NCBI GenBank assembly: GCA_037146715.1 | Contig: JBAWWO010000001.1 | Coordinates: forward strand, 6,433-70,432 | Source: Alphaproteobacteria bacterium | Lineage (GTDB): Bacteria > Pseudomonadota > Alphaproteobacteria > UBA7879 > UBA5542 | Direction of reading: 5' to 3' | Length of the DNA: 64,000 nt | In this document: positions 100-51,509 of the stretch, piece by piece | How the letters are laid out: the number at the start of each line of letters is the position of its first letter | How positions within the stretch are numbered: position 1 is the first letter of the stretch | Program-made: the position numbers and the translations under genes | Notes under the pieces: model-generated | Database searches by the model: none | Told to the model about the DNA's origin: nothing | Seen by the model: the letters and a program-made list of their open reading frames with translations, nothing else

Positions 100-702
100 A
101 TGAGTGTACTTGTTGGGAAGAAAGCCCCAAATTTCACGGCCTCTGCCGTTATGCCAAATAATTCAATTAACGAAAACTTTAACCTGGAAGCTCATTTAAA
201 GGGAAAAACAGGATTATTGTTTTTTTACCCTCTAGATTTTACTTTTGTTTGTCCTTCTGAAATTATTGCCTTTGACCACAGAGTGAAGGCGTTTAAAGAA
301 AAAAACGTTGAAGTTATTGCGGTAAGTGTGGATTCCCACTTTACCCATCTAGCGTGGAAGAACACATCTATTAACGATGGAGGCATTGGACCTGTTCAGT
401 TCCCTATGGTGGCCGACCTTACAAAAAGCATCGCTCGCGACTATGATGTGTTGATTAACGAGGCCATTGCTTTGCGGGGCACATTCTTGATTGACAAAAA
501 TTTCATGGTTCGTCACCAAGTTGTGAATGATCTGCCTCTGGGGCGCAACATAGACGAGGCTTTGCGCATGGTAGACGCTTTACACTATTTTGAAGAACAC
601 GGAGAAGTTTGCCCTGCCGGTTGGAATAAGGGTGCCAAAGGAATGAAACCAAGCACTGAAGGTGTGGCAGAGTATTTGTCTAAATTCTCTGACAGCCTGT
701 AG
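100..702 (+). CDS. ahpC: 2-Cys peroxiredoxin (AhpC/Tsa family)
   Basis: Peroxidatic Cys motif FTFVCPSE and resolving Cys in EVCPAGW near the C-terminus. GGAG RBS 6 nt upstream of the ATG. 200 aa is typical for the family. Confidence 0.9.
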   Translation: MSVLVGKKAPNFTASAVMPNNSINENFNLEAHLKGKTGLLFFYPLDFTFVCPSEIIAFDHRVKAFKEKNVEVIAVSVDSHFTHLAWKNTSINDGGIGPVQFPMVADLTKSIARDYDVLINEAIALRGTFLIDKNFMVRHQVVNDLPLGRNIDEALRMVDALHYFEEHGEVCPAGWNKGAKGMKPSTEGVAEYLSKFSDSL

Positions 703-716
703 TCTTATGCCATGGC

Positions 717-737
717 CCCTCGGGCCGAGCCCGAGGG
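717..737. repeat. GC-rich palindromic element, variant A (CCCTCGGGC-cga-GCCCGAGGG)
   Basis: Perfect 9-bp inverted arms with a 3-nt loop. A near-identical copy lies at 11106..11132. Confidence 0.6.
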
Positions 738-772
738 ATTCATTGGGAGGGAGCGTCCCTCTTTTATTGCCG

Positions 773-793
773 TCCTCGGGCTTGACCCGAGGA
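773..793. repeat. GC-rich palindromic element, variant B (TCCTCGGGCTTGACCCGAGGA)
   Basis: 21-nt palindrome that is identical at 19307..19327. Confidence 0.6.
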
Positions 794-829
794 TCTATTC
801 AGGAAGTCAAAAAAAAATTTCATTTTCTC

Positions 830-859
830 TTGACTTTTCCTGATGGGATTATCATAAAA
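830..859 (+). promoter_or_regulatory. putative sigma70-like promoter for rplU-rpmA
   Basis: TTGACT (830..835) followed by TATCAT/CATAAA about 14-18 nt downstream, about 30 nt upstream of the rplU RBS. Confidence 0.3.
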
Positions 860-886
860 GGTCATTAGTTATTAGTTAGGAATATT

Positions 887-1345
887 ATGTTTGCAATTAT
901 TAGAACCGGTGGAAAACAATATAAGGTCAAAAGTGGTGACCTGGTTTTCGTTGAAAAATTAGAGCACGCAACGGGCGATCACGTTGTGTTTGAAGACATC
1001 TTGATGATTGGAGATGAGACTAAAACAACAGTTGGTTCTCCAACTTTGGCTGGCGCGAAGGTGGGTGGCGTTGTTGTCAACCAGGACCGCGCAGATAAAG
1101 TTATCATCTTCAAAAAGACTCGCCGTCATACATACAAGCGGAAGAAGGGTCATCGCCAACACAGAACAATCGTTCGTATCATGGAAATTTCTTTGAGCGG
1201 CGTGTTGCATGGTGCAAAGCCTGCTGCGAATGAAAAAGTTTCAACAGCTAAGCCTGTGGCTGCAGCTGAACCCAAACAGAAGGCGGCCCCTAAGGCAGCC
1301 CCTAAGAAAGCTTCTGCTGCTAAAGCACAGAAGGCTTCTGAGTAG
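887..1345 (+). CDS. rplU: 50S ribosomal protein L21 with C-terminal Ala/Lys/Pro-rich extension
   Basis: N-terminus [14 protein letters not shown] is canonical L21. The extended AK-rich tail is typical of alphaproteobacteria. Followed by rpmA. Confidence 0.92.
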
Positions 1346-1359
1346 GAAAGAGGTAAGAA

Positions 1360-1608
1360 ATGGCACAGAAAAAAGCAGGTGGTAGTTCCAGGAACGGTCG
1401 CGATTCAGCTGGTCGTCGTCTTGGTGTAAAAAAATTCGGTGGACAATCTGTTATTCCCGGTAACATTTTGGTTCGTCAACGGGGAACAAAAGTATTCCCT
1501 GGTCCAAACGTAGGCATAGGCAAAGACCATACTTTGTTTGCCCTAACTGAAGGACAAGTGCGCTTTTCCAAAAAAGGTGAAGGCAGAATGTTTGTAACCG
1601 TTATTTAG
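1360..1608 (+). CDS. rpmA: 50S ribosomal protein L27
   Basis: [29 protein letters not shown] is canonical L27. 82 aa. Confidence 0.95.
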
Positions 1609-1615
1609 TTTCCCG

Positions 1616-1700
1616 GAGGAGAGGGAGCCCCCCTCTCTCCAATCATCCCGAGGGGCCGTAAGGCCGACGTGGGGGGCCAGCTTTCTTTTCTCTATATTGT
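1616..1700 (+). terminator. stem-loop cluster downstream of rpmA (probable intrinsic terminator)
   Basis: GGAGAGGGAG-CCCC-CCTCTCTCC hairpin, then a GGCCGTAAGGCC palindrome and G-rich stem followed by TTTCTTTTCTC. Contains a half-copy (TCCCGAGGGG) of the dispersed palindromic element. Confidence 0.45.
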
Positions 1701-1742
1701 CACAAAACATAACTATTCCATATCTGACTGCAGAATAGTTTT

Positions 1743-2493
1743 ATGAAGCGTGCGCAGAAAAATATAATTTTAAAAGACCTGGAAAAGAAAATTATTCTTT
1801 TGGTGGGCCCCAGACAAGCAGGAAAAACTTGGCTTGCCAAAGATGAGGTGGAAGCCAGCCGGTGGCGGTTGCAGTACATCAACAGTCTGCTCAGTACAGA
1901 TATTTTCGAAATTGATACCATTCATAATCTAAAAGGAATGAGACTTGTTTTTGATTTGCTGAGAGAGCGTGTTGGATCCCCCGTTTCCTATCAATCCTTG
2001 GCAGAAGATGTCTCTGTCTCCCCCCACCACTATCAAGCGATACCTGCAGATTCTGGAAGCCTTGTTTGTTATTTTTATCGTTCCTCCTTATTCGAAAAAT
2101 ATTGCCAGGGGGATACAGAAATCTCCTAAGATCTATTTTTTTGATACGGCCTTGGTGTCAGGGGAAGGGGTTCGCTTTGAGAATTTGGTAGCCATCAGCT
2201 TGCTTAAACATATTTACGGTTGCGTTGATGTAAAAGCTGAAGAATACACATTGAATTACCTGCGCACAAAAGAAGGCGCTGAAGTCGATTTCGCATTAGT
2301 CAAAAAAGATCAGGTTGAACAGATTATTGAAGCCAAAGTATCAGATGATACGGTTAGTAAATCTTTACGATATTTTCATGAAAAATATGAATATCCTGCT
2401 GTTCAGCTTGTTCAGTCTTTAAGACACGAACGGCAAGAACAGGGCATTGAAATTCTAAAAGCAGAAAAATTTCTGTCCCAGTTGTTTTTGTAG
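1743..2493 (+). pseudogene. truncated/frameshifted paralog of the DUF4143 AAA+ ATPase at 22114..23265
   Basis: ORF 1743..2129 carries Walker A LVGPRQAGKT matching LSGPRQAGKT of the intact gene. ORF 1969..2493 in another frame matches the C-terminal DUF4143 part (KIYFFD..ENLVA..LRTKEGAEVDF vs KLYFYD..ENLVA..LKTKDGVEIDF). The middle roughly 150 aa are missing and there is a frameshift near 2030. Confidence 0.7.
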
Positions 2494-2562
2494 GGGGACT
2501 ATTCTTTTTATAAGGGATTGGCTATAGTAATTCTCTAACCAAGCAGGAGCAAACTAAACAAC

Positions 2563-3060
2563 ATGAGCATGTCTGACCTAAAAGAAGCCTTTGAATTAAT
2601 CGCAAAAAATTTTCCAGAAGAAGAAACAGGATTTCTGGGACCGAAGCCTGATACTTTTATAGATGCGGCCGAAGAGCTGTTGGAGCTGAAATTTCCCAAA
2701 ACCTACCGGGAATTCATGAAAACCGTGGGGCATGGCGGGCCAGGGGATGCCTTCATTCCCGGCATTCACGCTAAATCTTTGGATCAGTTGGAATTAGGCG
2801 GCGTCGTATGGGGCGTTTTGAATGATAGGGATGTTTTTGACTTTCCCGATCACCTGATTAAGGTGTATCACGCGGATGACACAAGCTATTGTCTGGATAC
2901 TGCTCAAATGGACTCAGAAGAATGCCCCGTAATCCTGTGGCCCGTTGGAGGGTACCACGAAACCCCCGTACTGGAAATTGCAGCCAAAGACTTTGGCGAA
3001 TTCTTCTTGAAGAAGGTGCGGGAAGAGATTATTAGTTCAGACAAAATGGAAGCAGAGTGA
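2563..3060 (+). CDS. SMI1/KNR4 (SUKH-1) family protein, immunity-protein-like
   Basis: 165 aa with the SUKH-1 signature FP..Y.EFM....GGG and a C-terminal IA.DFGEFL motif. No signal peptide. Confidence 0.65.
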   Translation: MSMSDLKEAFELIAKNFPEEETGFLGPKPDTFIDAAEELLELKFPKTYREFMKTVGHGGPGDAFIPGIHAKSLDQLELGGVVWGVLNDRDVFDFPDHLIKVYHADDTSYCLDTAQMDSEECPVILWPVGGYHETPVLEIAAKDFGEFFLKKVREEIISSDKMEAE

Positions 3061-3063
3061 AAT

Positions 3064-3393
3064 ATGAAAAGATTAGAAACGTGGAAAGCGAGCATACGGT
3101 ACTTTTTAATAATTGTTCTTCTTTTTCCTTCAGCTTCTTTTGGAGCACAGGAAGAGTCAACGCAACGATATTATTCTAGATTTTTTGATAATGAGTATCA
3201 TGATACTACTGCTACAAATGAGCGTCTTCAATGGGAAAAAACTATATGGCAAGAGGCTATGTGGGCAGAAGCTATACCTGAGATTAAATTCATGCCCATT
3301 GATACTTCTTTGAGTGTCGCGGATTGGGTTAGTATAGGTGTGCTGGGATTTGTTGCAGCAGCTTTGTTATGCGCCCCCTTGCTTTTAAATTAG
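3064..3393 (+). CDS. hypothetical small protein with N-terminal signal/TM and C-terminal TM
   Basis: ORF starts 4 nt after the SUKH stop. N-terminus FLIIVLLFPSASFGA is signal-like. Its 3' end runs into the SUKH remnant, so the reading frame may be fortuitous. Confidence 0.3.
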   Translation: MKRLETWKASIRYFLIIVLLFPSASFGAQEESTQRYYSRFFDNEYHDTTATNERLQWEKTIWQEAMWAEAIPEIKFMPIDTSLSVADWVSIGVLGFVAAALLCAPLLLN

Positions 3394-3510
3394 CTGTTGG
3401 GGCTGCCACTCCCCCCGTGCTTGAAAGCATCTCCAAAGACTTTGGTGAGAAGGCGTGGGAAGAGATTATTCAGCACCCTTGCTCCTCCTCCAGGGGCCAG
3501 GTAATCTAGC
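3364..3510 (+). pseudogene. degenerate tandem remnant of the 3' end of the SUKH-1 gene
   Basis: DNA 3364..3480 aligns to 2920..3048 with indels. Conceptual translation VLESISKDFGEKAWEEIIQHP matches VLEIAAKDFGEFFLKKVREEIISSD of the intact gene. Confidence 0.55.
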
Positions 3511-3701
3511 TATTTCAGCGCATAGTCCTGATAGGGGCCGTTTCGCGTCCCATGGACTTATAGACTCGGGGACGCAATTCACCTTTTCTGGCAAAAATAA
3601 ATTTCTGCTATCTATTGTTTCTAGAATCTCTTCATGTTAGTAATCAATTATGTTGCGTGCGAGAGGTTTTCTGACAATGCTATCTAAAGTAAAGGTTCTA
3701 A

Positions 3702-5222
3702 ATGCCTGCCCATCAGAATAGAGAAGATTTTTCTAAAATTCGCTCTTGGATGTTTCCAATATATAGCCATGAATTGATAAAACTGATCCCTATGGGTCTT
3801 TTGATGATTTTGATCAGTTTCAACTTCTGGATTCTACACATTTCAAAAGATACGCTTGTTATTACGGCTAAGCATTCGGGGGCTGAGGTTATTAGCTTCT
3901 TGAAGTTGCCTGTTTTCTTGTTCTCTATTCTGTTTATTATGGGTTTTACTTGGGCGTCAAATCTCTTTAAACAGCGCGCTATTTTTTACGGCATTATTAC
4001 TTTCTTTATTGTTTTTTTCTTGGTCTTCAAATTCGTTCTTTACCCTTATCAGGATAGTTTGAATATGTTCACGTCGGAAGAGCTTTTTTCTTTAAAAGCG
4101 CGATACCCCTCTCTTAGGTGGCTGTTCCCTGTTCTGTGTTACTGGGGTTATAGCCTGTTTTATATTATTTCTGAGCTTTGGGGGGCTGTTGTTCTAAGTC
4201 TATTATTCTGGCAGTTTTCTAACCAGATCACAACGGTTGAGCAATCTAGGCGCTTTTACATGTTATTTGGTATGTTCAACGGCCTTGGGACGATTCTTTT
4301 GGGGGTATTTGTGTATTATTACCAACCCGGTGCGGGGCTTGCGGGCGCCTATGCTATGAAGCTAGATCATCTGATTTTGATTTTTAGTTTTGTTTCCCTG
4401 CTGATTATGGGTATTTACTTTTGGGTAAATAAATATGCTGTCAAAGATAAAATGCATTATCACCCAGACAAGGGTACGCCTGACGCGCAGCATGAAATCA
4501 AACTCTCTTTCGTTGAAAGCTTTCGCTACATTTTAACGTCAAAATATGTGGGGTATATCGCCATTATTTCAATTGCCTATAATATTTCCATTAACTTTGT
4601 TGAAGTCACTTGGAAAAGTCAGATTGAAAAAATGTATCCAGATCCTTCCCAGATGGAATCATATTTTTCTTTGATCACCATTTATATCGGTATTTTGACC
4701 TGTGCCATTGGCTTTTTTGGGGCTGGATTTATTCGTCGATTTAGTTGGAAGACAAGCGCTTTGGTGACGCCTGTTGCTATGCTTGTGGCGGGCAGTTTGT
4801 TTTACTGGGTTACCTTAAAGGGTGAAAGTCTTTACTGGCTGACTCAGCTGATATGTATGTCTCCTGTGGCGTTTTCCGTATGGATTGGGCAGATTCATAA
4901 CCTGACTAGCCGAAGCTGTAAGTATAGCTTTTTTGCGGCAACCCGAGAAATGGCTTTCATCCCCTTAGATGCGGAATTAAAGGTTAAAGGTAAAGCAGCG
5001 GTTGATGTGTTAAGTGGCCGTGTGGGTAAATTTGGGGCGTCCCTGATTCAATCTGTTCTACTTTCTTTGTCAGCCCTTAGCACTCAAACAACGATTGCCC
5101 CTTTTTTGATGGTAGCCTCCCTTTTGGTTATTGTGGTGTGGATGTGGTCTATTAATCGCCTGAACAAAGAATTCTTGAATGTGGCCTATGGCAGCACGAC
5201 GGCAGAGCAATTAAAAAAATGA
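3702..5222 (+). CDS. tlc: ATP/ADP translocase (nucleotide transport protein, NTT/Tlc family)
   Basis: 506 aa polytopic membrane protein. The N-terminus resembles Rickettsia Tlc (W-P-I...HE..K..P...MM..I..N...L...KD..V.T) and the protein is rich in F/Y/W TM segments. Confidence 0.85.
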   Translation: MPAHQNREDFSKIRSWMFPIYSHELIKLIPMGLLMILISFNFWILHISKDTLVITAKHSGAEVISFLKLPVFLFSILFIMGFTWASNLFKQRAIFYGIITFFIVFFLVFKFVLYPYQDSLNMFTSEELFSLKARYPSLRWLFPVLCYWGYSLFYIISELWGAVVLSLLFWQFSNQITTVEQSRRFYMLFGMFNGLGTILLGVFVYYYQPGAGLAGAYAMKLDHLILIFSFVSLLIMGIYFWVNKYAVKDKMHYHPDKGTPDAQHEIKLSFVESFRYILTSKYVGYIAIISIAYNISINFVEVTWKSQIEKMYPDPSQMESYFSLITIYIGILTCAIGFFGAGFIRRFSWKTSALVTPVAMLVAGSLFYWVTLKGESLYWLTQLICMSPVAFSVWIGQIHNLTSRSCKYSFFAATREMAFIPLDAELKVKGKAAVDVLSGRVGKFGASLIQSVLLSLSALSTQTTIAPFLMVASLLVIVVWMWSINRLNKEFLNVAYGSTTAEQLKK

Positions 5223-19280: not shown

Positions 19281-19293
19281 TTCCTCGGGCCCC
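19281..19293. repeat. half-copy of the palindromic element (TTCCTCGGGCCCC)
   Basis: Left arm only, followed by a T9 run. Confidence 0.4.
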
Positions 19294-19306
19294 TTTTTTT
19301 TTGCTT

Positions 19307-19327
19307 TCCTCGGGCTTGACCCGAGGA
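19307..19327. repeat. palindromic element variant B, identical to 773..793
   Basis: TCCTCGGGCTTGACCCGAGGA. Confidence 0.65.
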
Positions 19328-19381: not shown

Positions 19382-19403
19382 CCCTCGGGTAGAAGCCCGA
19401 GGG
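19382..19403. repeat. palindromic element variant C (CCCTCGGG-tagaa-GCCCGAGGG)
   Basis: 8-9 bp arms, same arm sequence as variant A. Confidence 0.6.
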
Positions 19404-19486
19404 AATCAGTAGGAGTAAGCCCCACCCCCGTCATCCAGAGGAAGCCGCAGGCTGACGAAGCAATCCAGATTCTTCTGAGTTTGGTT

Positions 19487-22113: not shown

Positions 22114-23265
22114 TTAATTTGGGTTCTTTTTGATATAAGACCGCAAATCTAAGGTCGCCAGAAATTTTTTTAAATCACGCATCTGGATACCATCGGGATG
22201 GTCAAATTCTCTTTTTAGATGAAGCACCAACTGTATGCACGGCACATCCTGTAGAAATTTTTTAAAATGGTTAAAACTTTTTGAGGGCACATCATCAGAT
22301 GTTTTAACCTCTATACATACAACAGGGACATCATCAATGGTGACCAAAAAATCAATTTCCACGCCATCTTTGGTCTTTAAATAATGTAGGTTTCCTTTGT
22401 GGCCATAGACGTCTTCAATCCAATGAATTTCTTTTAAAAGAGCACAAGCGACTAGATTTTCCAGGCGGGCGCCTTCATCCGGGACGCGACCTATATCATA
22501 AAAATAAAGCTTGGGTTCTTTTAACAAGGATCGGGCTACATTAGTGTGATAGGGGGTTACACTGAAAATTGCATAAATATTTTCTAAAAGAGTTAACCAG
22601 TTTTTCAACGTTTTGGGATCTATCTGTAAATCGTTACAGAGATTGGTATAGGAGAGGGGGCCTGAAACCCTTGATTTAAGCAATTCTAATAAGGTCTCAA
22701 CCAACTTGATAGAGCGCACAGAGTACAAGTCTAGAAAATCCTGCCGCAATATGATGTCTAAATGAGATTTTTGCCAGCGCCTGTAAAACTGAGTATCACC
22801 CTCTAAAAATGGTTCTGGAAATCCGCCACATTCCATAAGTCGCCTAAAGATATCATCAATATCTTTTTTCCAATACATAGCTCCTTCTTTTAAGTCAATT
22901 GGGTGCAGGCGGAAGCCAAAATATCGTCCTGCTAAAGAATCCCCCACCTTACGGAACGTGTCTAGATTAGCGCTGCCCGTGACGATAAGGCGGGGCCTAT
23001 TCCCTTCTGTATCATACACACCCTTCAGCCATCGTTTCCAATAGGGCATTTTGTGCAATTCGTCAAAAAGAACGCAGTCTACGTTTCTTTTCCAATGTTT
23101 CTTTTCAAGAGCTTCTCGGTCTTCTGAGGCATCGTAATTAAAATAATCATAGCTTGAGAAAAGGTGCCGTGTCAGCGTTGTTTTGCCAGCTTGTCTGGGA
23201 CCACTCAACAGAATGATTTTCTTGTCCGAATCTTTTATGAGCGTTGCAGATAAATATCGATCCAT
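22114..23265 (-). CDS. AAA+ ATPase, AAA_14 + DUF4143 family
   Basis: Walker A LSGPRQAGKTTL, Walker B VLFDELH, C-terminal DUF4143 region. Intact paralog of the pseudogene at 1743..2493. Confidence 0.8.
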   Translation of the reverse strand: MDRYLSATLIKDSDKKIILLSGPRQAGKTTLTRHLFSSYDYFNYDASEDREALEKKHWKRNVDCVLFDELHKMPYWKRWLKGVYDTEGNRPRLIVTGSANLDTFRKVGDSLAGRYFGFRLHPIDLKEGAMYWKKDIDDIFRRLMECGGFPEPFLEGDTQFYRRWQKSHLDIILRQDFLDLYSVRSIKLVETLLELLKSRVSGPLSYTNLCNDLQIDPKTLKNWLTLLENIYAIFSVTPYHTNVARSLLKEPKLYFYDIGRVPDEGARLENLVACALLKEIHWIEDVYGHKGNLHYLKTKDGVEIDFLVTIDDVPVVCIEVKTSDDVPSKSFNHFKKFLQDVPCIQLVLHLKREFDHPDGIQMRDLKKFLATLDLRSYIKKNPN

Positions 23266-23292
23266 TTGTTCCTCTCTATTACGACTAAAATA

Positions 23293-23336
23293 GGAGTCAA
23301 TTCCTAAAAAGTCAAGACTTTTCGGGAATTCACTCC
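23293..23336. promoter_or_regulatory. long imperfect hairpin in the divergent promoter/5'-leader region
   Basis: GGAGTCAATTCC ... GGAATTCACTCC arms (11/12) enclose a nested AAAAGTC-aag-GACTTTT palindrome. Lies 28 nt upstream of the ATPase ATG on the minus strand. Confidence 0.4.
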
Positions 23337-23393
23337 TGTTTGGTCGGAGGGCTTGAAATTTTATAACCGATTAACTATATCAAGTTTAAGGTT

Positions 23394-23409
23394 TGTGATA
23401 AGCATCACA
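23394..23409. promoter_or_regulatory. CRP/FNR-type palindrome TGTGA-N6-TCACA
   Basis: tTTGTGAtaagcaTCACAtt is an exact match to both CRP half-sites with 6-nt spacing. Centre lies about 24 nt upstream of the 23425 start codon. Confidence 0.4.
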
Positions 23410-23424
23410 TTAGGAGATAGATTA

Positions 23425-24990
23425 ATGAAATTAAAACTTTTAGCTTTTGTGTTTTTCCTTGCTATGCAAGGAGTTGCTGCAACTCAAGACCCAGACTTCA
23501 AAGAACTTCCTGTTGATAAGGTATTGTCCTTGAATGATCAGGAAGAATTATTTGTAAAAGCTTATGATGCTGTCGGGTCTGCAGAGATTCACCCTACTGA
23601 AACTATCATTCCCGGTCTTGCTCCTATGATTCGCATGCACTACAGCTATGTGGCAAAGCTGGTTGAACATAGTCCCAAACATTTAGAATTGTTAAAAGAT
23701 TTTTGGCAAAAGGTGTCAAAAGTTATTGAAAGCAATCAACTTACGATTGCCCGTATGCGCTCCATCACAATGCAGTTGGCTTTTCTTTTGACTGATATGC
23801 AAGGAACTCCTGTTGAAGAGTTAGCACACTGTAAGAACTTGTATGAAGATGGAAACTGGCAAGATCTTGATACATATAAGGATCCCTTTTCATATTGGCT
23901 TATAACTTCGTATCCTTTCGAAAACCACTTGAAAGCAAAAGATTTGTATCGTGAGGCCATCTTGTGCTGCAAGGGTGGAGGATTTTCTTTTGACCGTTTT
24001 GTCAGAAACTATTTGGATCGGCCCTTGCCTCTTAATTTAGGAGCTCTCTCTCTTAAATGCAAAGGAGCTCATGGAGGAAATGTCTGTGAATCCGGCGATT
24101 TTCTATGGCATGATTTTAACCATACAAATGAATTTGTATACACAATGCTTTGTGAAGAAATTCAAGCTCAAAAGAAACCCAATATTTTCCAAGATTATCC
24201 AATCTTGAAAGAAAAGGGATTTTGGAATATTGAGAAAGAACTTTTAGGGAAAATTTATCGTTCTGCCGCTCGTAAAGATCGTAATATGGCTGCTCTTTTC
24301 TTGATGCTGCATGAAAACCATCCTTCTCTTATAAACAGTTCTCAACCATGGCTTGGGGATGAGGCCCTTCCTTTGAGTGAGCGTCGGTTGTTTTGGGGGT
24401 TAGTGTCTAATATAACGACTGAAGAATATGCACTTTCCACCCTTGTTTATGGTTCTTTTTTTGGTGGGGTTAGTGGGTATCCTTTGCCTTTACAGTATTA
24501 TGCCCTTAGATCACAAATTCGAAACATTAAAAATATTGGAAGTGTTGAAACTATCGTTGCAGATATTCATTATCATGTATCGGATCTTACGTACAAAAAT
24601 ATTGGAACATTTTCGTTAGATCTGGTCTGCAAACCTGGGACGGAGGATTGGGCAGAGCACCAATTTGTTTCAAATGTTTCAAATATTACATGGAAACCTG
24701 ATTTTGATGTGCTAAGTCTTGAGGAGAAAAGCTTTATCAACCAGCATCTTCTGTCATCCTCTGCGGAAGAAAGGTATGGGCGTAAACGTTCTATTGAGTA
24801 TAGGCAGTTTGCTCAGGATTATGAAGAGATTCTGCGAAGTGTCTATGGGGCTGAATTTTTGCCATCAGAAACACAAGCATCTTTGGGTGAGAGGGTAATG
24901 GCAATTGAAAGCGGCATGAAGCGATTTTGGGAAGAATTTTATATGGAAAATAGAGAATTGTTTTCAGATAAACTTTTTGAAGTTGCATAA
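23425..24990 (+). CDS. hypothetical secreted protein (522 aa)
   Basis: GGAG RBS and signal peptide MKLKLLAFVFFLAMQGVAA. No recognisable domain. Cys-containing (CCKGGG, CKGAHGGNVC). Confidence 0.55.
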   Translation: MKLKLLAFVFFLAMQGVAATQDPDFKELPVDKVLSLNDQEELFVKAYDAVGSAEIHPTETIIPGLAPMIRMHYSYVAKLVEHSPKHLELLKDFWQKVSKVIESNQLTIARMRSITMQLAFLLTDMQGTPVEELAHCKNLYEDGNWQDLDTYKDPFSYWLITSYPFENHLKAKDLYREAILCCKGGGFSFDRFVRNYLDRPLPLNLGALSLKCKGAHGGNVCESGDFLWHDFNHTNEFVYTMLCEEIQAQKKPNIFQDYPILKEKGFWNIEKELLGKIYRSAARKDRNMAALFLMLHENHPSLINSSQPWLGDEALPLSERRLFWGLVSNITTEEYALSTLVYGSFFGGVSGYPLPLQYYALRSQIRNIKNIGSVETIVADIHYHVSDLTYKNIGTFSLDLVCKPGTEDWAEHQFVSNVSNITWKPDFDVLSLEEKSFINQHLLSSSAEERYGRKRSIEYRQFAQDYEEILRSVYGAEFLPSETQASLGERVMAIESGMKRFWEEFYMENRELFSDKLFEVA

Positions 24991-25126
24991 TAGAGTGATC
25001 CTTATAAAAGGAATCCATTCCCGTTTGGTCGGATTGTTGCAGGATCTTTATCTTTCTATTCTTTTTTCAAAAAATAATAAAAAACTACTTGGCGCGGAAA
25101 AACAAACAGGTTATACAGGTGGGAGT

Positions 25127-25202
25127 GCCGGATTAGCTCAGCTGGTAGAGCTACTGATTTGTAATCAGAGGGTCGGCGGTTCGAGTCCGTCATCCGGCAC
25201 CA
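25127..25202 (+). tRNA. tRNA-Thr (anticodon UGU)
   Basis: 76 nt cloverleaf: acceptor GCCGGAT/ATCCGGC, D-arm GCTCAGCTGGTAGAGC, anticodon loop TTTGTAA, T-arm GGCGGTTCGAGTCCGTC, encoded CCA. Confidence 0.9.
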
Positions 25203-50444: not shown

Positions 50445-51353
50445 ATGGAAACCACCCTTTTTATCTATGCATTTGCCGTCGTTTTTGGCATTTTTCTGAT
50501 TACCACAATGTTTTTTTCAATTAAGCAACAAACGGTTGCTATTATTGAGCGTTTGGGAAAGTTTCATCGAATGGCAAATCCTGGGCTGAATAGTAAATTT
50601 CCTTTTATTGACCAAGTTGTTGGCTATGTGAATTTAAGGGTTCAACAGCTGGATGTTCCTGTTGAAACAAAGACTGAGGATAACGTTTTCGTGCAGCTGA
50701 TGGTTTCAGTGCAATATCAGGTGGCGCCCTCTAAGATTTACGAGGCCTATTACAAGCTGGAAAAGCCAATTGCTCAGATTCAAGCCTTTGTGTTTGATGT
50801 GGTTCGGGCGAAGGTGCCTAGCATCAGTTTGGATTCCTTGTTTTCAAAGAAAGATGAAATCGCCATTGATGTTAAAAATGAATTGCATGAAACCATGTCT
50901 AGCTTTGGGTATGAAATTATTAAAGCCTTAGTGACAGATATCCAGCCTGATGAAAACGTTAAGCATGCTATGAACGAAATCAATACGTCTCAAAGACTTC
51001 GTATGGCAGCCCTGGAAAAGGGAGAAGCCGAAAAAATTATACGGGTTAAACAAGCGGAAGCTGAATCTGAAGCCAACATTTTGCACGGCAAAGGGGTTGC
51101 GGGGCAACGCCAGGCTATTATTGAGGGATTGGGGCATTCTGTAGAGGAATTGCAAAAGACGTCTCCTCAAATCAAAAGTGAATCCTTGATGCAGATGGTC
51201 TTGATGATTCAGTATTTGGATATGTTACGGGAAATCGGGTCTTCCTCTAAAAGCAACACAGTTTTCGTGAATCATTCCCCAGGGGGTGTGCAGGACTTGG
51301 CTCAACAAATTCGTGAGACTATGTTTGCGACGGCTTTGAAAGATGAGCAATAA
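50445..51353 (+). CDS. SPFH/Band-7 (stomatin/prohibitin-like) membrane protein
   Basis: N-terminal TM, then an SPFH domain (VKQQTVAIIERLGKF...). C-terminal Ala/Glu-rich coiled-coil (EKGEAEKIIRVKQAEAESEA). Start set at the ATG with a GGAG RBS. Confidence 0.8.
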   Translation: METTLFIYAFAVVFGIFLITTMFFSIKQQTVAIIERLGKFHRMANPGLNSKFPFIDQVVGYVNLRVQQLDVPVETKTEDNVFVQLMVSVQYQVAPSKIYEAYYKLEKPIAQIQAFVFDVVRAKVPSISLDSLFSKKDEIAIDVKNELHETMSSFGYEIIKALVTDIQPDENVKHAMNEINTSQRLRMAALEKGEAEKIIRVKQAEAESEANILHGKGVAGQRQAIIEGLGHSVEELQKTSPQIKSESLMQMVLMIQYLDMLREIGSSSKSNTVFVNHSPGGVQDLAQQIRETMFATALKDEQ

Positions 51354-51509
51354 GCTGGATCCCGACGTCGGCCTTATGGCCTCCTCTGGATGACGGGAGG
51401 GGTTGGATTTTGTCTATTTTTTAACAGAAGAAATCACGTCCAGCAAAAATCTTGCCGTTTGAGCCCAGAATATGGTAGATAATAGGCAGTCAAATACAAG
51501 GAATTCTAA

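What the first reader, a model, noticed from the sequence alone, without database searches (positions are those of the whole stretch)
1743..3640. Decaying accessory islet between rpmA and tlc: SUKH-1 immunity-type gene, its tandem degenerate 3' remnant, and a pseudogenised DUF4143 ATPase
ORF 2563..3060 has the SMI1/KNR4 (SUKH-1) signature. That family is best known as immunity proteins of polymorphic toxin systems. About 300 nt downstream, 3364..3510 is a recognisable remnant of the same gene's 3' end at DNA and protein level (VLESISKDFGE-KAWEEIIQHP vs VLEIAAKDFGEFFLKKVREEIISSD). That implies an ancestral tandem array of immunity genes now eroding. Immediately upstream is a frameshifted, internally deleted copy of the DUF4143 AAA ATPase found intact at 22114..23265. 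No cognate toxin gene is visible. This would fit orphan immunity retention or a eukaryote-facing role, as proposed for SUKH proteins in other intracellular bacteria.
Basis: partly seen in the sequence, partly recalled or inferred. Interest (0 to 1): 0.6.

Follow-up and report, generated by a model that had tools for sequence, protein, structure and literature searches.

The report
Orphan SUKH immunity gene, rearranged tail
A likely intracellular alphaproteobacterium keeps a lone antidote gene of the kind that normally neutralises a DNA-cutting LHH toxin used in bacterial warfare; the nearby "remnant" is most likely that gene's own original tail, pushed aside by a small insertion; overall this is an ordinary member of a known system.

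Summary
ORF 2563..3060 is a SUKH/SMI1-KNR4 protein: three Pfam SUKH models pass their cut-offs, best SUKH_5 at 3.7e-19. Region 1743..2493 is a DUF4143/AAA_14 ATPase pseudogene with about 120 codons deleted and a +1 frameshift. Its intact paralogue lies on the minus strand and is only about 43% identical. The 3' remnant is real.

The interpretation needs one correction. In the closest relative (L006, 87% identical DNA), one SUKH gene runs from the window's gene body straight into the window's remnant tail. The window therefore carries 365 extra bases (3034..3398). They supply a new 8-codon tail and an orphan 109-aa membrane-type ORF, and are flanked by a roughly 60-70-bp direct duplication of the gene's 3' end. 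No second SUKH body is detectable. A single insertion or displacement event fits best. An eroded tandem array is a weaker rival.

Every other homologue locus recovered has an LHH nuclease toxin domain directly upstream. Only the window and L006 lack it. The two orphan copies differ with dN/dS of 0.10, which indicates a retained orphan immunity gene.

This is a new member of a known kind, of modest interest.

The parts
1743..2493 (+). Pseudogene of a DUF4143/AAA_14 P-loop ATPase (PADLOC candidate defence family PDC-S01). The Walker A segment is kept, about 120 codons (residues 34-152 of the paralogue) are deleted, and there is a +1 frameshift near 2025.
   Evidence: Pfam AAA_14 and DUF4143 fragments fall in two frames. 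tblastn of the intact paralogue gives three pieces in two frames. PADLOC PDC-S01 scores 2.5e-17 for the 3' part and 2.3e-55 for the intact paralogue.
2515..2562 (+). Leader of the SUKH gene. Homology with the relative L006 starts here, and upstream of it the two contexts differ.
   Evidence: blastn L006 302-817 = window 2515-3030 at 87%. The leader is 43/48 identical.
2563..3060 (+). Intact SUKH (SMI1/KNR4) immunity-type gene, 165 aa, with no adjacent toxin gene. It belongs to a clade whose other members all follow LHH nuclease toxins.
   Evidence: Pfam; PDB YobK; NCBI name 'SMI1/KNR4 family protein'; LHH linkage of homologues; dN/dS 0.10 against L006; gene-like codon score 0.335.
2963..3033 (+). 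Repeat copy B1: the last part of the SUKH domain (PVLEIAAKDFGEFFLKKVREEII), in frame within the live gene. Homology to B2 and to L006 ends abruptly after 3033.
   Evidence: The three B1-specific differences (GTA, CTG, GGC) are third-position and synonymous on direct reading of the alignment.
3034..3398 (+). Segment X, absent from L006. It supplies the present gene tail SSDKMEAE* (3034-3060), a 3-nt spacer and ORF109. GC is 38.6%, against 46-47% on both sides. The right edge is uncertain within about 3372-3411.
   Evidence: Three-way alignment; no SUKH similarity in any frame; unique in the window; GC values.
3064..3393 (+). ORF109: an orphan 109-aa ORF with an N-terminal hydrophobic, signal-like segment and a C-terminal hydrophobic helix. 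It starts 3 nt after the SUKH stop codon.
   Evidence: Only itself was found among 5.8 billion proteins. No Pfam, NCBIfam or PADLOC hit. Codon score 0.215 lies within the range of real genes and above the 95th percentile of spurious ORFs. Hydropathy. AlphaFold2 single-sequence model is low confidence, four helices.
3399..3470 (+). Repeat copy B2: a decaying duplicate of the SUKH 3' end (clear from 3412, and at protein level from 3399), with a 12-nt in-frame deletion and a cluster of substitutions.
3471..3563 (+). Displaced original gene tail (QHPCSSSRGQVI*, stop at 3507-3509) plus downstream DNA. In L006 this sequence follows the SUKH domain without interruption.
   Evidence: 76/93 identical to L006 821-913, ungapped, with the stop codon at the same position.
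3592..5222 (+). tlc (ATP/ADP translocase, 3702..5222) and its upstream region. This is the start of the conserved core block tlc-rpiB-glyA-nrdR.
   Evidence: Pfam TLC 1.7e-145. Homology with the MAG locus L012 begins at window 3592. Downstream synteny is seen in L012 and L013.

Best explanation
Region 2563..3060 is an intact orphan immunity gene of the SUKH superfamily. It belongs to a clade whose members neutralise LHH-type (HNH/EndoVII-fold) nuclease toxin domains of polymorphic toxin systems.

Inferred mechanism: the cytoplasmic 165-aa protein binds an incoming LHH nuclease domain delivered by a competitor and blocks it. The gene is kept without a toxin of its own as protection against non-self toxins.

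The downstream 'remnant' is not a second gene. It is the original last 60-110 bp of this same gene plus its original 12-codon tail. A 365-bp segment (3034..3398) entered the 3' end of the gene. That segment brought a replacement 8-codon tail and a tightly coupled small ORF for a membrane- or secreted-type protein. A copy of the end of the SUKH domain was duplicated, so the domain stayed whole. This topology (gene body, new 3' end, insert, displaced old 3' end) is what a single-crossover integration or a homology-anchored illegitimate recombination would leave.

The upstream DUF4143/PDC-S01-type ATPase pseudogene is an independent decaying accessory gene. All of this sits at a synteny breakpoint in front of the conserved tlc-rpiB-glyA block.

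Shown here: family membership, the LHH linkage of relatives, absence of toxin from the window, the duplication and its junctions, purifying selection, and the pseudogene lesions. Inferred: toxin binding, the protective role, and the direction and mechanism of the rearrangement.
For: - Family: three Pfam SUKH models pass their cut-offs, and YobK 2PRV matches at 6e-9.
- Toxin partner: an LHH domain (PF14411, 1.7e-27 to 3e-22) lies directly upstream of the homologue in L002-L005 and L007-L011, in L017-L021, and, by a custom LHH profile, in L014-L016 and L022-L023. That is 8 of 8 distinct homologue groups. CdiA-type TPS/DUF637 proteins occur in L002 and L019. Zhang et al. 2011 (PMC3113570) report the same SUKH-LHH linkage in CDI operons and propose that isolated SUKH genes protect against non-self toxins. 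Orphan SUKH immunity proteins were shown to protect in Bacteroidales (PMC12247911).
- Orphan state: no LHH and no second SUKH in six-frame profile searches of the 64-kb window or in L006.
- Selection: dN 0.062, dS 0.61, dN/dS 0.10 against L006.
- Insertion: L006 is colinear with window 2515-3030 and then 3412-3563. Identity is 14/14 right up to the junction at 3033/3470, then there is none. X has no SUKH signal and a GC of 38.6% against 46-47% on both sides. X consists almost exactly of the new tail plus one ORF with gene-like codon usage. The same sequence appears in two assemblies, the NCBI MAG and a Logan contig.
Against: - Direction of the event is not proven. The three-way comparison of B1, B2 and the L006 copy is star-like (about 9-11 differences for each pair), so it does not date the duplication relative to the split from L006.
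- Only one close relative (a 913-bp contig) exists.
- The present tail, SSDKMEAE, resembles the short charged tails typical of the family more than the L006-type tail does. That would suit the opposite polarity.
- Real tandem SUKH arrays with similar 3' ends (83% over 198 nt) exist in the next-closest relatives.
- No integrase, recombinase or terminal repeats explain how 365 bp moved.
- ORF109 has no homologue, so it may not be a real gene.
- A cognate toxin could lie elsewhere in the genome, because only 64 kb plus 5 kb were seen.
- SUKH flanks are less diverged from L006 than silent sites in the gene. This is unexplained.
Confidence: 0.6

Rival explanations
1. The ancestor carried two or more tandem SUKH genes, possibly with ORF109 between them. 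In the window lineage the body of the second gene was deleted, leaving only its 3' end (3399..3509). In the L006 lineage, recombination between the two similar 3' ends deleted everything in between, producing a single chimeric gene.
For: - Tandem SUKH arrays occur in the 57%-identical relatives: L003 has SUKH1, SUKH2 and the start of a third gene.
- Arrays are a known theme of the family (PMC3113570).
- Paralogues in L003 share 83% identity over the last 198 nt, similar to B1 against B2 (about 81-91%).
- The space from the gene-1 stop to the remnant stop (449 nt) is close to one gene plus spacer in L003 (529 nt).
- The gene-1 tail looks family-typical.
- The B1/B2/L006 comparison is star-like and does not contradict an old duplication.
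Against: - It needs at least three or four events: duplication, tail replacement creating the abrupt 3033/3470 breakpoint, deletion of the body of gene 2 in the window, and a recombinational deletion in L006. The insertion model needs one.
- In L003 the paralogue tails and spacers remain homologous through and beyond the stop codon, whereas here homology stops dead 9-12 codons before the stops.
- No trace of a SUKH body exists in 3034..3398 in any frame, although the adjacent remnant still keeps about 81% identity to L006.
- X differs in GC from both flanks.
Confidence: 0.25
2. The SUKH protein does not act as an antibacterial-toxin antidote here. Either it has been redeployed (for example as a host-facing effector or a binding adaptor, as SUKH domains are in eukaryotes and viruses), or it is a neutral relic of a lost toxin-immunity cassette.
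For: - No toxin in 64 kb.
- The organism carries an ATP/ADP translocase and its nearest named relative is a Holosporaceae MAG. This suggests an intracellular life, where Zhang et al. 2011 note such systems are rare.
- SUKH domains bind diverse partners (PMC3113570).
Against: - dN/dS of 0.10 argues against a neutral relic.
- The protein has no signal peptide, on direct reading of the sequence.
- It retains 57% identity to toxin-linked homologues along its whole length.
- Nothing in the data points to secretion.
Confidence: 0.1
3. The downstream similarity is due to chance or to an assembly artefact.
For: The repeat is short (59-71 nt), and a SUKH family profile alone does not find it (E 0.85).
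Against: - blastn E 2e-5.
- An independent match of L006 to 3412-3563 at E 9e-31, with the stop codon in register.
- The two copies have diverged and so are not a collapsed repeat.
- Identical sequence in the NCBI MAG contig and in a separate Logan assembly.
Confidence: 0.03

Closest known systems
SUKH-superfamily immunity proteins of LHH-toxin polymorphic toxin / CDI systems (Zhang, Iyer & Aravind 2011, PMC3113570; Pfam PF14567, PF14568, PF09346 with PF14411)
   Same: Same domain family, size and single-domain architecture. The nearest homologues sit immediately after LHH toxin domains, some of them in CdiA-type (TPS/DUF637) loci with orphan toxin-immunity modules.
   Different: Here there is no toxin gene next to the gene or anywhere in 64 kb. 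The gene lies between ribosomal-protein genes and tlc in a probably intracellular alphaproteobacterium.
Orphan immunity genes (isolated SUKH genes in Zhang et al. 2011; rAID/AID orphan SUKH immunity in Bacteroidales, PMC12247911)
   Same: An immunity-type gene kept without a cognate effector, under selection. The predicted role is protection against non-self toxins.
   Different: There is no recombinase and no multi-gene array. It is a single gene with one unrelated small ORF behind it. Protection is untested.
B. subtilis YobK (PDB 2PRV), the closest solved structure by sequence; from my own knowledge it is the immunity protein of the LXG toxin YobL
   Same: Detectable sequence homology over residues 33-155 (E 6e-9), including the C-terminal DFxEF-type helix.
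   Different: A distant relative whose partner toxin is an RNase rather than an LHH nuclease.
Integrative elements that insert into the 3' end of a gene and carry a replacement 3' end (the classical attL/attR topology of phages and islands at tRNA or protein genes; from general knowledge)
   Same: The topology matches: gene body, new 3' end, insert, then the displaced old 3' end as a direct repeat, with the target gene kept intact.
   Different: The insert is only 365 bp, has no integrase, and the repeats have diverged. It could equally result from homology-facilitated illegitimate recombination.
DUF4143/AAA_14 ATPases (PADLOC candidate defence system PDC-S01)
   Same: The upstream pseudogene and the intact paralogue at 22114..23265 (minus strand) match this family (2.5e-17 and 2.3e-55).
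   Different: The copy in the islet is dead (internal deletion plus frameshift). Defence activity of the family is only a candidate assignment.

Membership tests
SUKH superfamily (SMI1/KNR4) | Profile match above the curated threshold over the whole domain | tested here: met
   PF14567 69.4 bits (cut-off 27), PF14568 55.7 bits (cut-off 27), PF09346 47.5 bits (cut-off 25.4), covering residues 11-150.
SUKH superfamily (SMI1/KNR4) | Homology to a structurally solved SUKH protein | tested here: met
   2PRV YobK at 6.1e-9 and 2ICG Lin2918 at 1.1e-4. Both are cited as SUKH structures in PMC3113570. The fold itself was not modelled here.
Immunity protein of a polymorphic toxin system (cognate pair) | A toxin gene with a C-terminal toxin domain immediately upstream, often overlapping | tested here: not met
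   The 69-nt gap upstream follows a DUF4143 pseudogene. No LHH signal is found in six-frame profile searches of the window (best E 0.49) or by tblastn. The feature is met in all 8 other homologue groups.
Orphan immunity gene | The cognate toxin is absent from the whole genome | tested here: inconclusive
   Only the 64-kb window plus 5 kb of L001 could be searched. The rest of the MAG was not available.
Orphan immunity gene | Maintained by selection despite lacking a toxin | tested here: met
   dN/dS 0.10 between the two toxin-less copies, window and L006.
Orphan immunity gene | The protein binds and neutralises the toxin | not testable with these tools
   Requires co-expression or binding assays.
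   Only the last 60-110 nt are duplicated. A profile built from 145 homologues finds nothing in 3034..3398 in any frame. L006 has one gene spanning both parts.
rAID-type acquired interbacterial defence cluster | An associated recombinase and an array of diverse orphan immunity genes | tested here: not met
   No recombinase among the ORFs between rpmA and tlc. There is one SUKH gene plus one uncharacterised ORF.
Integrative element with 3'-end replacement | Direct repeats of the target gene's 3' end flanking the insert, with the target gene kept intact | tested here: met
   B1 at 2963-3033 and B2 at 3412-3470 flank X, and the SUKH domain is complete in gene 1.
Integrative element with 3'-end replacement | An integrase or recombinase encoded in the insert | tested here: not met
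   X is 365 bp and holds only ORF109, which has no family hit.
DUF4143/AAA_14 ATPase (PADLOC PDC-S01) | An intact AAA_14 domain plus a DUF4143 domain in one ORF | tested here: not met
   For 1743..2493, AAA_14 profile positions 37-129 are missing and there is a frameshift at about 2025. The feature is met for the paralogue at 22114..23265 on the minus strand.

The most novel reading that the evidence does not exclude
The 365-bp segment is a minimal, integrase-less gene cassette: a replacement gene tail plus one orphan secreted or membrane protein, possibly another immunity-type factor. It entered by recombining with the conserved 3' end of a SUKH immunity gene. If so, immunity loci can grow by 3'-end displacement in the way toxin genes swap C-terminal tips. 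In addition, an energy-parasitic, probably intracellular Holosporales-like bacterium would be actively maintaining defence against LHH nuclease toxins, which implies contact-dependent warfare among bacteria sharing a host cell.
Probability: 0.15. Interest if true: 0.5.

Novelty: new member of a known kind. Interest (0 to 1): 0.3.

Why it matters
SUKH immunity proteins, their pairing with LHH toxins, and the existence of isolated 'orphan' copies are established comparative genomics. The gene is already named an SMI1/KNR4 family protein in the public MAG record.

This case adds three small points:
1. It is a selected orphan copy in a tlc-bearing, probably intracellular alphaproteobacterium, a lifestyle in which such systems are reported to be rare.
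2. It gives a clear inference of the toxin type it should neutralise.
3. It is a clean footprint showing that the 3' end of an immunity gene can be displaced by a tiny insertion while the domain is preserved.

If the protective role were confirmed, it would suggest interbacterial competition inside or around protist hosts. Otherwise this is a routine accessory islet.

Tried and rejected
- **Synteny comparison at the rpmA-tlc junction.** The genome scan with TLC returned only two relatives, L012 (81%) and L013 (62%). Both conserve tlc-rpiB-glyA-nrdR, but each has different genes upstream of tlc (mucR-like/holA; lptD-like). No 'empty site' is available, and the islet sits at a synteny breakpoint.
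- **Relics of a SUKH body or an LHH toxin.** None found in 1609..3701, in the whole window, or in L006.
- **Leftward extension of the repeat to about 3372** (P-x5-VG pattern). It is not supported by a scored DNA alignment, so I quote 3399/3412 as the start.
- **Dating the duplication from B1/B2/L006 site patterns.** The pattern is star-like and uninformative.
- **Using gene tails to polarise the event.** Family tails are too variable.
- **Testing whether the conserved 3' ends in the real array L003 reflect gene conversion.** dS is 0.71 in the 3' part against 0.92 in the 5' part, so constraint suffices. I dropped the 'recombination handle' claim.
- **ORF109.** No homologue and no Pfam, NCBIfam or PADLOC hit. 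The AlphaFold2 single-sequence model (pLDDT 68, pTM 0.25) is too weak for a fold search.
- **Rfam** on 600-3800: nothing at E <= 1.
- **Promoter and terminator scan** of 1500-3800: no more sites than shuffles give, and none on the + strand upstream of the genes.
- **Inverted repeat 2460-2481 / 3588-3609** (73% over 22 nt). It brackets the module, but 8-nt seeds of this kind are expected by chance in 2 kb, so I treated it as noise.
- **X elsewhere in the window.** No copy found.
Full report
**What is there**

The stretch between rpmA (1360..1608) and tlc (3702..5222; Pfam TLC 1.7e-145) contains, on the + strand:
- two overlapping ORFs with AAA_14 and DUF4143 fragments (1743..2129 and 1969..2493);
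- a 165-aa ORF (2563..3060);
- a 109-aa ORF (3064..3393);
- a 46-aa ORF (3369..3509).

The source is a metagenome-assembled alphaproteobacterium. NCBI already names the 165-aa product an SMI1/KNR4 family protein. An independent Logan assembly holds the identical sequence.

**Checking the observation**

The 165-aa protein passes the curated thresholds of three SUKH-clan Pfam models: SUKH_5 at 3.7e-19, SUKH_6 at 8.8e-15 and SMI1_KNR4 at 3.5e-12. It also matches the solved SUKH protein YobK, 2PRV, at 6e-9.

The upstream gene is a true pseudogene. Against the intact paralogue, residues 1-33 and about 153-216 align in one frame and residues 217-374 in the next. Residues 34-152 are absent. That paralogue lies on the minus strand at 22114..23265, is only about 43% identical, and belongs to PADLOC's candidate defence family PDC-S01 (2.3e-55).

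The 3' remnant is real. Region 2963-3033 matches 3412-3470 (blastn E 2e-5). It is independently confirmed through a relative, as described next.

**The key comparison**

Only two close relatives of the SUKH protein exist among 5.8 billion proteins. The closer one is P0002, on the 913-bp contig L006, with 87% DNA identity. It has a single SUKH gene. Its sequence is colinear with window 2515-3030. Then, overlapping by about 70 nt, it is colinear with window 3412-3563 (75.6%, E 9e-31).

In the three-way alignment, the window's gene and its remnant are identical for the last 14 nt before position 3033/3470. After that the live gene continues with new sequence (SSDKMEAE*). The remnant continues exactly like L006 (QHPCSSSRGQVI* against QNPCSSSRDQAI*), with the stop codon in register, and a further 54 nt of downstream DNA are shared.

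Relative to L006, the window therefore has an extra 365 nt (3034..3398), flanked by a direct duplication of the gene's last 60-70 nt. At protein level the duplication may reach about 110 nt (tblastn from 3399).

**The extra segment**

- It has no SUKH similarity in any frame when searched with a profile of 145 homologues.
- It has no other copy in the window.
- Its GC is 38.6%, against 46-47% for the SUKH gene and for the remnant side.
- It consists almost exactly of the new 8-codon tail, 3 nt, and ORF109.

ORF109 has gene-like codon usage: a score of 0.215, against 0.26 ± 0.09 for real genes and a 95th percentile of 0.167 for spurious ORFs. It has hydrophobic N- and C-terminal segments. It has no homologue or family assignment, and its structure model has low confidence.

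**Which history?**

One insertion or displacement event explains both abrupt junctions, the intact SUKH domain and the colinearity with L006. Such an event could be single-crossover integration of a small circle carrying the gene's 3' end, or recombination anchored by homology on one side and illegitimate on the other.

Real arrays occur in the 57%-identical relatives: L003 has two complete SUKH genes and the start of a third, with 83% identity over the last 198 nt. However, that model needs several events, including a recombinational deletion in L006. It also does not explain why homology stops abruptly 9-12 codons before the stop codons, when array members in L003 stay alignable through the stop and the spacer.

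Site patterns in the short repeat are star-like and do not decide the matter, and gene tails across the family are too variable to polarise the event. I put the insertion model near 0.6 and the array model near 0.25.

**What the gene does**

Every other homologue locus recovered has an LHH nuclease toxin domain directly upstream:
- L002-L005 and L007-L011 (Pfam PF14411, 1.7e-27 to 3e-22);
- L017-L021;
- L014-L016 and L022-L023 (custom LHH profile).

Some of these lie in CdiA-type loci with TPS/DUF637 proteins and orphan toxin-immunity modules. This agrees with Zhang et al. 2011, who found LHH to be the usual partner of SUKH in CDI operons. They proposed that supernumerary or isolated SUKH genes protect against non-self toxins, and they noted that such systems are rare in intracellular bacteria (PMC3113570). 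Orphan SUKH immunity proteins have since been shown to protect Bacteroidales (PMC12247911).

The window and L006 are the only loci without LHH, and none is found anywhere in the 64-kb window. Even so, the two orphan copies differ with dN 0.062, dS 0.61 and dN/dS 0.10. The gene has therefore been kept by selection.

The most likely function is neutralisation of LHH-type nuclease toxins delivered by other bacteria. Binding and protection are inferred, not shown. A cognate toxin elsewhere in the genome cannot be excluded.

**Context**

The block tlc-rpiB-glyA-nrdR is conserved in two related MAGs, but the genes upstream of tlc differ in each. Homology with the closest one starts at window 3592. 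The islet therefore lies at a synteny breakpoint, and no empty-site comparison is possible. Upstream of 2515, L006 also differs from the window, so the DUF4143 pseudogene is not part of the SUKH module. Rfam and promoter/terminator scans gave nothing.

**Verdict**

This is a new member of a known kind: an orphan, LHH-associated SUKH immunity gene beside a dead candidate-defence ATPase gene. The one instructive detail is that the 'remnant' is the gene's own displaced 3' end rather than a second gene. Interest is modest.

Noticed in passing
window 703-886, 1637-1683; copies at 11109-11133, 19291-19327, 19382-19415, 51352-51399: Short GC-rich palindromic sequences in intergenic regions recur at several places in the window at 82-94% identity. 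They look like a dispersed REP-like repeat family in an otherwise AT-rich genome.
   Followed up: partly
window 22114-25202: The intact DUF4143/PDC-S01 ATPase (22114..23265, minus strand) sits next to a 545-aa ORF (23353..24990, + strand) with no Pfam hit and a tRNA-Thr gene (25127..25202). This may be a second small accessory spot.
   Followed up: partly
L022 2-379; L023 1-291: Upstream of an intact SUKH homologue (P0007), the LHH toxin reading frame is split by a stop codon into two pieces. This looks like an intermediate stage of toxin loss on the way to an orphan immunity gene.
   Followed up: no
L003 1067-2096: In a real tandem SUKH pair, the first 100 codons have diverged with dN about equal to dS (0.88 and 0.92). 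The last third is conserved (dN 0.11, dS 0.71). This suggests a fast-evolving N-terminal specificity region and a constrained C-terminal part.
   Followed up: partly
L017 3626-4489 (GCA_945860985.1): A minimal pair of a 124-aa LHH protein and a SUKH gene is wedged between housekeeping genes (a DEAD-box helicase and a pseudouridine synthase), with no large delivery protein visible nearby.
   Followed up: no
window 2515-2562 and 3471-3563 versus 2563-3033: The non-coding flanks of the SUKH gene are less diverged from L006 (JC distances 0.11 and 0.21) than silent sites inside the gene (dS 0.61). This is unexplained. It could reflect constraint on the flanks, small numbers, or a different history for the gene body.
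   Followed up: partly
window 887-1345: Ribosomal protein L21 (rplU) carries a C-terminal extension of about 45 aa rich in Ala, Lys and Pro.
   Followed up: no
L008 1-342, 1959-2306, 5120-5974: One metagenomic contig carries three near-identical repeats of a toxin-module C-terminal region, each followed by small ORFs, together with an LHH-SUKH pair. This is a typical orphan-module array of a polymorphic toxin locus.
   Followed up: no
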